Shown here: one piece after another, positions 7,883 to 7,985 of the stretch
How the letters are laid out: the number at the start of each line of letters is the position of its first letter
How positions within the stretch are numbered: the stretch's first letter is position 1
Virus record (IMG/VR): IMGVR_UViG_2671180821_000007
Strand: one strand, 5' to 3'
Length of the DNA: 11,368 nucleotides
Source of the DNA: a virus
Lineage: Duplodnaviria > Heunggongvirae > Uroviricota > Caudoviricetes
Notes under the pieces: generated by a model
What the model was told of the DNA's origin: nothing
Seen by the model: only the letters and a program-made list of their open reading frames with translations
Database searches by the model: none
Position numbers and translations under genes: made by a program

Positions 7883-7985
7883 AACGGCTCCTCGTTTACG
7901 TTGTTGGTTAGAAGCCCTGCGAGTGGTAACGACACTTGCGGGGCTTCGTCGTTTCAATTGCTGAATTGCATGTATCAGCACTTGT

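What the first reader, a model, noticed from the sequence alone, without database searches (positions are those of the whole stretch)
7911..7947. Long hairpin in the leader of the replication operon, more stable as plus-sense RNA
A 15-bp stem (7911..7925 with 7933..7947) and 7-nt loop lies between the predicted promoter and the first gene start (7882). As plus-sense RNA the stem is perfect apart from two G-U pairs; as minus-sense (operon) RNA those two positions become A-C mismatches. This suggests a countertranscript or antisense regulator overlapping the operon 5' end. P4 controls the same operon with a small leader-derived CI RNA, so an RNA-based immunity element here is plausible but unproven.
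Basis: partly seen in the sequence, partly recalled or inferred. Interest (0 to 1): 0.5.

Follow-up and report, generated by a model that had tools for sequence, protein, structure and literature searches.

The report
Antisense small RNA guarding a satellite operon
The hairpin is real and is most likely the terminator stem of a conserved, roughly 80-base RNA copied from the opposite strand across the start of the first gene of a phage satellite's replication operon, apparently an undescribed RNA family that probably keeps that operon silent.

Summary
The hairpin is real. It has 15 bp, a 7-nt loop and two G-U pairs on the + strand (-27.9 kcal/mol as + RNA, -18.5 as - RNA).

The window is a degraded PICI/cfPICI-type phage satellite. 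The hairpin lies in the 5' leader of its Icd-like/primase operon.

Comparison with about 360 related loci shows that it is the 3' stem-loop of a conserved two-hairpin RNA, predicted at + 7877-7956.
- Both stems covary: 92% of cells are paired and 16 of 25 pairs change on both sides.
- Paired positions hold 299 G-U against 14 A-C, so the fold is selected on the strand antisense to the operon.
- A T-rich tail follows the hairpin on that strand only.
- A -10-like hexamer (TATGAT, 7864-7869) sits 44-53 nt upstream in 34 of 42 diverse relatives. These include loci whose first gene is an unrelated HNH or GIY-YIG protein.

The 5' stem-loop usually displays the anti-Shine-Dalgarno sequence. The RNA covers the ribosome site and start codon.

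No Rfam family matches. It is not a P4 CI/P1 C4 RNA, and it can sit beside one.

Best reading: a cis-antisense translational repressor of the kind known from P22 sar, lambda OOP and IS10 RNA-OUT. I found no data showing that the RNA is expressed.

The parts
7841..7846 (+). Weak -35-like hexamer TTGTGT, 17 nt upstream of the -10 of the predicted antisense promoter
   Evidence: 3 of 6 matches. No clear -35 signal across the family. It lies in the 3' arm of an intragenic hairpin.
7864..7869 (+). -10-like hexamer TATGAT of the predicted antisense promoter, inside codons 5-7 of the Icd-like gene
   Evidence: A TATGAT/TATGCT hexamer lies 48-51 nt from the hairpin in 62 of 62 distinct Icd-anchored relatives. 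TAnnnT lies 44-53 nt away in 34 of 42 diverse relatives, against 1-14 of 42 in other 10-nt bins, and in 14 of 19 relatives with unrelated first genes.
7877..7956 (+). Predicted antisense RNA of about 80 nt (SL-I, SL-II, U-rich tail)
   Evidence: Covariance model R1 finds one hit in the window, 60.8 bits. The predicted fold is -37.9 kcal/mol, z = -5.4. There are 88 homologues in 99 loci and covariation in both stems. The ends are inferred, not measured.
7877..7909 (+). Stem-loop I: the 5' end AACCAUAACG pairs with CGUUG-UUGGUU. The 12-nt loop 7887-7898 carries the anti-SD CUCCUC (7888-7893).
   Evidence: the inner helix has 4 of 4 pairs with changes on both sides, and the outer helix is 90% paired. 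The outer helix is mostly G-U on this strand (pair 3-66 is G-U in 73 of 85).
7905..7911 (+). Conserved box TGGTTAG (CTAACCA on the operon strand), the 3' strand of SL-I
   Evidence: Nearly invariant in the Icd-anchored loci, with variants TGGTCAG and TGGTTAT. It pairs with the complement of ATGG(C/T)T around the start codon.
7911..7947 (+). Predicted intrinsic terminator stem of the antisense RNA.
   Evidence: 93.7% paired, 10 of 15 pairs change on both sides, 50 G-U against 1 A-C. helix 4: 97% paired, 9 of 13 pairs covary.
7948..7957 (+). T-rich tail GTCGTTTCAA (4 T of 10, the weakest tail in the family)
   Evidence: Tails of 40 variants average 5.3 T of 10. L029, with the same stem and the tail GCTTTTTTAA, is called a terminator. 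The window copy is not called by the same scan.
7685..7882 (-). Icd-like gene (65 aa), first gene of the operon. SD GAGGAG at 7893-7888, ATG at 7882-7880. This is the predicted target.
   Evidence: NCBIfam NF033153, E = 5e-18; sequence.
7986..8039 (-). Promoter-like site of the operon, -35 TTGAAA (8021-8016) and -10 TAATGT (7998-7993), with three GGTATTCAC repeats (7986-7994, 8006-8014 inverted, 8031-8039)
   Evidence: Read; not listed by the stricter scan. Every relative has TTGAC/A-17-TAnnnT with its own repeat pair at this place. The mosaic boundary falls at the hairpin.
8083..8388 (+). Divergent YlcI/YnfO-family gene, candidate regulator of the promoter module
   Evidence: NCBIfam NF041551, E = 1e-16. 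The regulatory role is inferred from position only.

Best explanation
The hairpin is the 3' terminator stem-loop (SL-II) of a conserved, structured cis-antisense RNA of about 80 nt, transcribed on the window's + strand. Its promoter has its -10 (TATGAT, 7864-7869) inside codons 5-7 of the first gene of the operon. Transcription would start at about 7876-7878, run across the start codon and Shine-Dalgarno sequence of the Icd-like gene, and stop after the hairpin at about 7950-7957, just short of the operon's own promoter and operators. The 5' half folds into SL-I, whose loop displays the anti-SD sequence.

The RNA is perfectly complementary to nt +30 to +110 or so of the operon mRNA. I infer that it pairs with that leader, blocks ribosome binding to the first cistron, and so lowers expression of the Icd-like protein. 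Loss of translation or cleavage of the duplex could also lower expression of the downstream DUF4222 and primase genes. This would hold the satellite silent until the operon promoter is strongly induced.

Shown here: the structure, the strand, the covariation, the T-rich tail, the positional conservation of the -10, and complementarity by geometry. Inferred: that the RNA is made, its exact ends, and its repressive effect.
For: 1. Structure. The hairpin folds at -27.9 kcal/mol, z = -8. It is kept at the same place with about ten unrelated stem sequences. On 27 distinct hairpins, 93.7% of cells are paired, 10 of 15 pairs change on both sides, no shuffle of 500 reaches this, and slid controls give 36-52%. 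For the whole RNA on 85 distinct sequences, 92.4% are paired, 16 of 25 pairs and 276 cells change on both sides, no shuffle of 500 reaches this, and slid controls give 35-47%.

2. Strand. 39 of 40 variants are more stable on the antisense strand. G-U against A-C is 50 to 1 and 299 to 14. The operon strand would pair only 78.8%.

3. Terminator. T-rich tails occur only on the antisense strand. L029 is called a terminator.

4. Promoter. A -10-like hexamer lies 48-51 nt upstream in 62 of 62 Icd-anchored variants, even though leader length and the position of the His codon differ. TAnnnT lies at 44-53 nt in 34 of 42 diverse relatives, and in 14 of 19 whose first gene is HNH_3-AP2, HNH, GIY-YIG or a zinc-finger protein. 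Several are consensus or extended -10 sites (TATAAT, TGGTATAAT). The His codon under the -10 is always CAT in those 62 variants. The base complementary to RNA position 1 (third base of codon 2, GCT in most relatives, GTT in the window) allows the A1-U67 pair in 80 of 85.

5. Target geometry. The SL-I loop carries an anti-SD-like motif in 56 of 85 sequences (window loop).

6. Specificity of the model. There is one hit in the window, none in P4, and none in 13 decoy loci that matched the search pattern by chance.
Against: - I found no transcript evidence. The Hfq-CRAC list of sRNA candidates for E. coli O157:H7 Sakai has no peak in prophage Sp7, which carries a homologue at NC_002695.2 1597426-1597505 on the minus strand. 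No paper in the library holds the sequence.
- The window's own U-tract is poor (4 T of 10) and the terminator scan does not call it.
- The -35 is weak (3 of 6) and the family shows no clear -35 signal.
- The promoter lies in coding sequence, so part of its conservation in Icd-type loci could come from the protein.
- The 120 loci from the pattern search were selected on TGGTTAG plus GCCC...GGGC. Conservation of those bases in that set is by construction.
- Alignment A3 was fitted to the model, which favours the modelled structure.
Confidence: 0.7

Rival explanations
1. The hairpin is only an insulating terminator. It stops spurious antisense transcription from running into the promoter and operator module and the divergent regulator gene. 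The short RNA is a by-product with no regulatory role.
For: The hairpin plus T-tail sits exactly at the mosaic boundary between the variable regulator/promoter module and the conserved leader. L029 is called a terminator.
Against: A by-product would not need a positionally conserved promoter. It would not need a second covarying stem-loop that presents the anti-SD, nor selection of G-U pairs in SL-I.
Confidence: 0.15
2. The hairpin works in the operon (sense) mRNA as a 5' leader structure. It could be a stabilising 5' hairpin, an RNase III site, a pause or attenuator, or part of an antitermination site followed by the CUAACCA box.
For: The hairpin lies within the predicted 5' UTR, about 40 nt from the predicted start. 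The - strand still folds at -18.5 kcal/mol, z = -5.6. A conserved box follows it.
Against: On the sense strand 299 paired cells become A-C mismatches, against 14 the other way, and 39 of 40 variants are weaker on that strand. No U-tract follows the hairpin on the sense strand. The CUAACCA box is explained as the partner strand of SL-I on the antisense RNA.
Confidence: 0.08
3. It is a diverged member of the P1 C4 / P4 CI immunity RNA family. It would be processed from the operon leader and act on repeated target sites.
For: In P4 the equivalent position, between the promoter and an Icd-like ORF ahead of the primase, holds C4/CI RNA. A paper notes that the C4 and isrK profiles hit several Gram-negative PICIs (PMC10111431).
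Against: Nothing in the window matches C4, isrK or c4-a1b1 at E <= 1. The same scan finds all three in P4 (C4 and isrK above gathering score, c4-a1b1 at 44.1 bits just below its 46.7), and the gathering-threshold scan finds them in relatives. The structure is on the opposite strand. The window has no repeated complementary sites beyond chance 9-mers. Relatives L195, L200 and L206 carry this module and a separate C4 RNA.
Confidence: 0.02
4. It is a DNA-level palindrome: a protein binding site, or a cruciform at an origin or recombination site.
For: It has a long inverted repeat close to operator-like repeats.
Against: The arm sequences are not conserved while the pairing is. A G-T against A-C asymmetry has no meaning in duplex DNA. 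The likely origin is elsewhere, in an iteron cluster at 3747-3985.
Confidence: 0.03

Closest known systems
P22 sar RNA (immI region) and lambda OOP RNA: short cis-antisense RNAs of temperate phages (from my own knowledge of the literature)
   Same: An RNA of about 70-80 nt from a promoter on the opposite strand, ending in an intrinsic terminator. It is fully complementary to part of a regulatory-operon mRNA. For sar, that part is the ribosome binding site of ant. The expected result is repression of a gene that would upset the quiescent state.
   Different: There is no sequence or model similarity: no Rfam family reaches E <= 1 here. The target is the first cistron of a satellite's replication operon, not ant or cII. 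The RNA has a defined two-hairpin fold with the anti-SD usually in the first loop. Activity is untested.
IS10 RNA-OUT / RNA-IN (from my own knowledge of the literature)
   Same: The promoter lies inside the 5' end of the target gene and fires outward. The RNA covers the start codon and SD of the target. The stem-loop is stable and carries G-U pairs.
   Different: RNA-OUT is a single long hairpin whose loop pairs with the 5' end of RNA-IN. Here there are two hairpins, and the second doubles as the terminator. The genetic context also differs (transposase against satellite operon).
P1 C4 / P4 CI immunity RNAs (Rfam RF01695, with target families RF03163 and isrK RF01394)
   Same: They hold the same place in the gene order: promoter, RNA element, Icd-like gene, replication genes. 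The likely purpose is also the same, RNA-level repression of the Icd-led operon.
   Different: C4/CI is cut out of the sense leader and acts on repeated target boxes. This RNA is antisense, has its own promoter and has no repeated targets. The two modules co-occur in some satellites.
Type I toxin-antitoxin pairs with 5'-overlapping antisense RNAs, such as SymR/SymE (from my own knowledge of the literature)
   Same: A small antisense RNA overlaps the translation start of a small, potentially toxic protein. Icd-like proteins are named as cell-division inhibitors.
   Different: The same RNA module precedes HNH, GIY-YIG and zinc-finger genes in other loci. It is therefore not tied to a toxin. The gene heads a long operon rather than a two-gene cassette.

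Membership tests
C4 antisense RNA / P4 CI RNA (Rfam RF01695) | Match to the family covariance model | tested here: not met
   Nothing in the window matches at E <= 1. Positive controls: P4 scores 74.9 bits, and L168, L176, L183, L195, L200 and L206 score 69-79 bits.
C4 antisense RNA / P4 CI RNA (Rfam RF01695) | Encoded on the same strand as the operon and excised from its leader | tested here: not met
   The structure is selected on the opposite strand: 299 G-U against 14 A-C, and 39 of 40 hairpins are more stable as antisense.
C4 antisense RNA / P4 CI RNA (Rfam RF01695) | Repeated complementary target boxes (a1/b1, seqA/seqC; RF03163, isrK) | tested here: not met
   No RF03163 or isrK hit in the window. 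Only chance 9-mers are repeated in the window.
Intrinsic (Rho-independent) terminator | G+C-rich stem-loop | tested here: met
   15-bp stem with 8 G-C pairs, -27.9 kcal/mol.
Intrinsic (Rho-independent) terminator | U-tract directly after the stem | tested here: inconclusive
   The window tail GTCGTTTCAA has 4 T of 10 and the scan does not call it. The family mean is 5.3 of 10. L029, with the same stem, is called; L010 is not.
Intrinsic (Rho-independent) terminator | Transcripts end there | not testable with these tools
   This needs Term-seq or 3' RACE.
cis-encoded antisense RNA that occludes a ribosome binding site (sar, OOP, RNA-OUT kind) | Own promoter on the strand opposite the target | tested here: met
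   Met on sequence only. A -10-like hexamer holds a conserved distance: 62 of 62, 34 of 42 overall and 14 of 19 with unrelated first genes. The -35 is weak. Promoter activity was not measured.
cis-encoded antisense RNA that occludes a ribosome binding site (sar, OOP, RNA-OUT kind) | Complementary to the SD and start codon of the target | tested here: met
   The predicted RNA 7877-7956 spans the ATG (7880-7882) and the SD (7888-7893).
cis-encoded antisense RNA that occludes a ribosome binding site (sar, OOP, RNA-OUT kind) | Conserved secondary structure supported by covariation | tested here: met
cis-encoded antisense RNA that occludes a ribosome binding site (sar, OOP, RNA-OUT kind) | Detectable transcript that represses the target | not testable with these tools
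   No report was found. The Sakai Hfq-CRAC list has no peak in Sp7, and literature searches were empty.
Any described RNA family (Rfam 15) | Match to any of the 4227 covariance models over 7860-7960 | tested here: not met
   the only hits in the window at E <= 1 are two chance microRNA models at 3798-3911; no hit at the homologous site in L029, L010, L243, L140, L067 or L001.
Type I toxin-antitoxin system | The antisense RNA is dedicated to a small toxin gene | tested here: inconclusive
   The first gene here is Icd-like, and its toxicity is untested. The same module precedes HNH_3-AP2, HNH and GIY-YIG genes elsewhere.

The most novel reading that the evidence does not exclude
This RNA is a widespread family that I did not find described. 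It may serve as the missing maintenance or immunity repressor of Gram-negative PICI/cfPICI satellites. On this reading each leader type (SL-I loop plus stem) defines an immunity specificity, and the RNA does from the opposite strand what C4/CI RNA does in P1 and P4. [quoted passage not shown]
Probability: 0.3. Interest if true: 0.8.

Novelty: new member of a known kind. Interest (0 to 1): 0.62.

Why it matters
Gram-negative PICIs and capsid-forming PICIs are common; 788 of 5426 complete E. coli genomes match this 100-nt segment. How they stay silent is not settled. The founding paper found that AlpA is an activator and left the repressor question open (PMC6092414).

A conserved antisense RNA over the translation start of the first gene of the replication operon is a concrete, testable candidate for that control. 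It also shows how one regulatory task can be met in related satellites by two unrelated RNA solutions, sometimes side by side: leader-derived C4/CI RNA and this antisense RNA.

In practice the covariance model built here could annotate the element, and homologous coordinates exist in well-studied strains such as O157:H7 Sakai prophage Sp7.

Tried and rejected
- **Rfam.** A permissive scan of the whole window found nothing at the hairpin. The two microRNA hits at 3798-3911 are chance matches to an iteron cluster.
- **Phage collection.** A blastn search with 7300-8800 gave no match.
- **Trans targets.** I searched the window for sites complementary to the RNA, in the manner of P4 seqA/seqC. Only chance 7-9-mers turned up.
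- **Ash family.** The 98-aa ORF that runs through the hairpin (7685-7981) has no Pfam hit. The Ash hits in relatives P0043 and P0052 fall on their N-terminal extensions ahead of the Icd-like part; from their similarity to the C4-bearing leaders of P4-like loci I infer, without testing it, that these extensions are translations of C4-type leaders.
- **Pseudoknot.** The loop AACGAC could pair with the flanking GUCGUU. I rejected this on geometry, because no linker spans the 15-bp helix.
- **rrn/lambda boxA.** I considered a resemblance to CUAACCA. I did not pursue it, because the box is explained by SL-I and the sense strand is disfavoured.
- **Genome collection.** The scan with the Icd-like protein returned only 2 loci, so diversity came from IMG/VR.
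- **Literature.** I searched for Icd-like plus satellite, PICI plus antisense RNA, the sequence strings, and ECs1575-1578. I also checked two EHEC data sets. No report or transcript peak turned up. The supplements of PMC7547250 are not held.

Full report
**1. The observation**

The sequence at 7911-7947 is GAAGCCCTGCGAGTG-GTAACGA-CACTTGCGGGGCTTC. It forms 15 consecutive pairs with a 7-nt loop. On the + strand the only non-Watson-Crick pairs are G-U at 7918-7940 and 7921-7937, and on the - strand these are A-C mismatches. ViennaRNA gives -27.9 kcal/mol for the + strand RNA (z = -8.0; 0 of 200 shuffles as good) and -18.5 kcal/mol for the - strand RNA (z = -5.6).

**2. Context**

The window is a degraded phage satellite of the PICI/cfPICI type. 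Its genes are:
- integrase, 10130-11368 (-)
- an IS1 insertion, 9073-9770
- AlpA, 8734-9030 (-)
- a divergent YlcI/YnfO-family gene, 8083-8388 (+)
- on the - strand, an Icd-like gene (7685-7882; NF033153, E = 5e-18), a hypothetical gene (7372-7692), DUF4222 (7066-7365) and a D5/P4-type primase (5537-7084), which abuts an IS3 (4324-5480)

Relatives in E. coli carry the same order, followed by SSB, capsid and terminase genes. One sits inside a prophage portal gene, like the helper-embedded PICIs of PMC10111431.

The hairpin lies 29 nt upstream of the Icd-like ATG. It is downstream of a promoter-like site on the - strand, TTGAAA(8021-8016)-17-TAATGT(7998-7993), which is flanked by three GGTATTCAC repeats. 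The tool's stricter scan does not list this site.

**3. The hairpin across relatives**

I fetched loci through the Icd-like protein, not through the hairpin. In these loci the region upstream of the hairpin is mosaic. Each type has its own TTGAC/A-17-TAnnnT promoter and its own operator-like repeats, and homology to the window starts at or inside the hairpin. A hairpin is nevertheless always present immediately 5' (operon sense) of a box [CA]T[AG]ACCA, with about ten unrelated stem sequences.

On 27 distinct hairpins:
- 93.7% of cells are paired
- 10 of 15 pairs show changes on both sides
- no shuffle of 500 reaches any measure
- sliding the partners gives 36-52%

**4. Which strand**

In 39 of 40 distinct variants the strand antisense to the operon (the window's + strand) folds better, by 6.7 kcal/mol on average. 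At the paired columns there are 50 G-U cells, spread over 10 of 15 pair positions, against a single A-C. G-U is neutral in RNA, and its complement A-C is disruptive. The structure is therefore selected in an RNA read from the + strand. This also argues against a purely DNA-level palindrome.

**5. Terminator features**

On the antisense strand every variant is followed by a T-rich tail, 5.3 T of 10 on average and never fewer than 4. On the operon strand the hairpin is followed by CUAACCAACAAC, which has no U-tract.

The consensus scan calls a terminator on that strand in L029, which has the same stem with the tail GCTTTTTTAA. It does not call one in the window, whose tail GTCGTTTCAA is the weakest, nor in L010. 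I read the hairpin as an intrinsic terminator. For the window copy itself this stays provisional.

**6. A promoter for the antisense transcript**

On the + strand, TATGAT (7864-7869) lies 48 nt before the hairpin boundary. In all 62 distinct Icd-anchored sequences, TATGAT or TATGCT lies 48-51 nt from the hairpin. This holds although the leader is 9 nt longer in one type and the His codon that provides the hexamer sits two codons earlier there.

To remove the confounding by protein sequence, I searched IMG/VR for TGGTTAGANGCCC-N(14-30)-GGGC.
- 102 of 120 matches fold as hairpins right after TGGTTA.
- In 19 of 42 diverse representatives the first gene on the other strand is not Icd-like. Those I scanned against Pfam are HNH_3-AP2, HNH or GIY-YIG proteins, one has only a weak zinc-finger match, and one has no hit.
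- TAnnnT still lies 44-53 nt upstream in 34 of 42 representatives, against 1-14 of 42 in every other 10-nt bin. In the non-Icd subset it is 14 of 19, against 0-4.
- Many of these hexamers are near consensus (TATAAT, TAGAAT, TACAAT, TAAAAT), and some are extended -10 sites (TGGTATAAT in L314 and L309).

There is no clear -35 signal. The window's TTGTGT matches 3 of 6. The start would fall at about 7876-7878, on the A of A(G/A)CCAU, which is the complement of the start codon plus codon 2.

**7. A second stem-loop explains the conserved box**

The predicted RNA 7877-7957 folds into two hairpins (-37.9 kcal/mol, z = -5.4). SL-I pairs the 5' end AACCAUAACG with CGUUG-UUGGUU. The conserved TGGTT(AG) box is therefore the partner of the complement of ATGG(C/T)T. 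The SL-I loop carries CUCCUC, the anti-SD.

The same architecture is predicted in 55 diverse homologues with different inner stems, such as CGUUA/UAACG, CGAUA/UAUCG, ACAAA/UUUGU and GACGAA/UUCGUU. RNAalifold recovers the outer SL-I stem and SL-II.

I built a covariance model (R1) from 41 sequences.
- It finds one hit in the window (7877-7956 +, 60.8 bits) and none in P4.
- It finds 88 hits in 99 loci, always antisense to the first gene wherever that gene's strand was known (the Icd-anchored loci), and none in 13 decoy loci that had matched the pattern by chance.

On the resulting alignment of 85 distinct sequences:
- 92.4% of cells are paired
- 16 of 25 pairs and 276 cells change on both sides
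- no shuffle of 500 reaches this, and slid controls give 35-47%
- the SL-I inner helix covaries at 4 of 4 pairs and SL-II at 9 of 13
- G-U against A-C is 299 to 14, and the operon strand would pair only 78.8%

Caveat: this alignment is fitted to the model, and the pattern-derived loci were selected on TGGTTAG and GCCC/GGGC.

**8. Relation to P4 and P1**

P4 carries, in the equivalent place, isrK/c4-a1b1 (8615-8705), C4/CI RNA (8420-8507) and then an Icd-like ORF inside the old cI reading frame. The window has none of these and no repeated target boxes.

Some relatives have this module before a first Icd-like gene, and c4-a1b1 plus C4 before a second (L195, L200, L206). The two are independent modules. 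The hairpin is not a C4/CI family member, although its position and likely purpose are analogous.

**9. Mechanism**

Shown:
- a structured RNA selected on the + strand
- terminator-like 3' end
- a positionally conserved -10
- full complementarity to the SD, the start codon and the leader hairpin

Inferred:
- The RNA is made constitutively at a modest level.
- It pairs with the operon leader, probably starting from the SL-I loop or the single-stranded leader.
- It blocks initiation on the first cistron.
- It reduces downstream expression through loss of translation or cleavage of the duplex.

Strong induction of the operon promoter would titrate it. I give 0.7 to this reading as a whole, and about 0.85 to the narrower claim that the hairpin belongs to a + strand RNA.

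**10. What is missing**

I found no expression data. The homologue in O157:H7 Sakai lies in prophage Sp7 (called 'untypable'), at 1597426-1597505 on the minus strand. The Hfq-CRAC candidate list has no entry there. That does not exclude an RNA that works without Hfq. Other supplements were empty or not held.

Published work on Gram-negative PICIs reports AlpA as an activator and leaves the repressor question open (PMC6092414). PMC10111431 mentions only C4/isrK-type RNAs.

**11. Verdict**

The element is best described as a new family within a known kind, cis-antisense RNAs that cover a translation start. It is widespread, with 788 of 5426 complete E. coli genomes matching 7860-7960, and it can be tested directly.

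Noticed in passing
window 3747-3985: At least eight copies of the 10-mer GGTGAACAGT/ACTGTTCACC lie here in both orientations. This is probably the satellite's iteron-type replication origin. It also explains the two chance microRNA hits from Rfam.
   Followed up: partly
window 7827-7847 (- strand), tail to 7817: A terminator-like hairpin, CACACAAACGGCCTTTGTGTG followed by GCGTTTTCTG, lies inside codons 12-22 of the Icd-like gene. Another Icd type has a different G+C hairpin (CCCGCCCTTGCGGG) at the same place. It could be a translation-sensitive attenuator or part of the antisense promoter region. It remains unexplained.
   Followed up: partly
window 7986-8039: Three GGTATTCAC repeats bracket the operon promoter. 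Each relative has its own repeat pair and a different divergent regulator. The regulator/operator module therefore appears to be exchanged as a cassette whose boundary is the hairpin.
   Followed up: partly
L195, L200, L206 (about 1700-1915): In these relatives the first Icd-like gene is followed by c4-a1b1 and a C4 RNA and then a second Icd-like gene. Two RNA control modules thus sit in series.
   Followed up: partly
L044, L049, L069, L102, L320, L353: Model R1 finds two or three copies of the RNA on one contig. Either several operons or genes each carry the module, or satellites lie in tandem.
   Followed up: no
L270, L279, L292, L296, L310, L312, L314, L318, L324, L346: In environmental viral contigs the same leader module precedes HNH_3-AP2, HNH, GIY-YIG or cysteine-rich proteins instead of an Icd-like gene.
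   Followed up: partly
L367 (NC_002695.2 1594711-1610171): Prophage Sp7 of E. coli O157:H7 Sakai, annotated as untypable, has the gene order of this satellite type, from integrase to terminase, and carries a homologue of the RNA.
   Followed up: partly
window 4324-5480 and 9073-9770: IS3- and IS1-family insertions interrupt the island. The primase ORF (515 aa, against about 605-710 aa in relatives) abuts the IS3, so this copy of the satellite is probably defective.
   Followed up: no
window 8687-8706 (+): A strong terminator-like site, GGCGACCGCCCCAGGTCGCC followed by TTTGTTTTAT, lies about 300 nt downstream of the YlcI/YnfO-family gene. The + strand transcription unit may therefore extend beyond that gene.
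   Followed up: no
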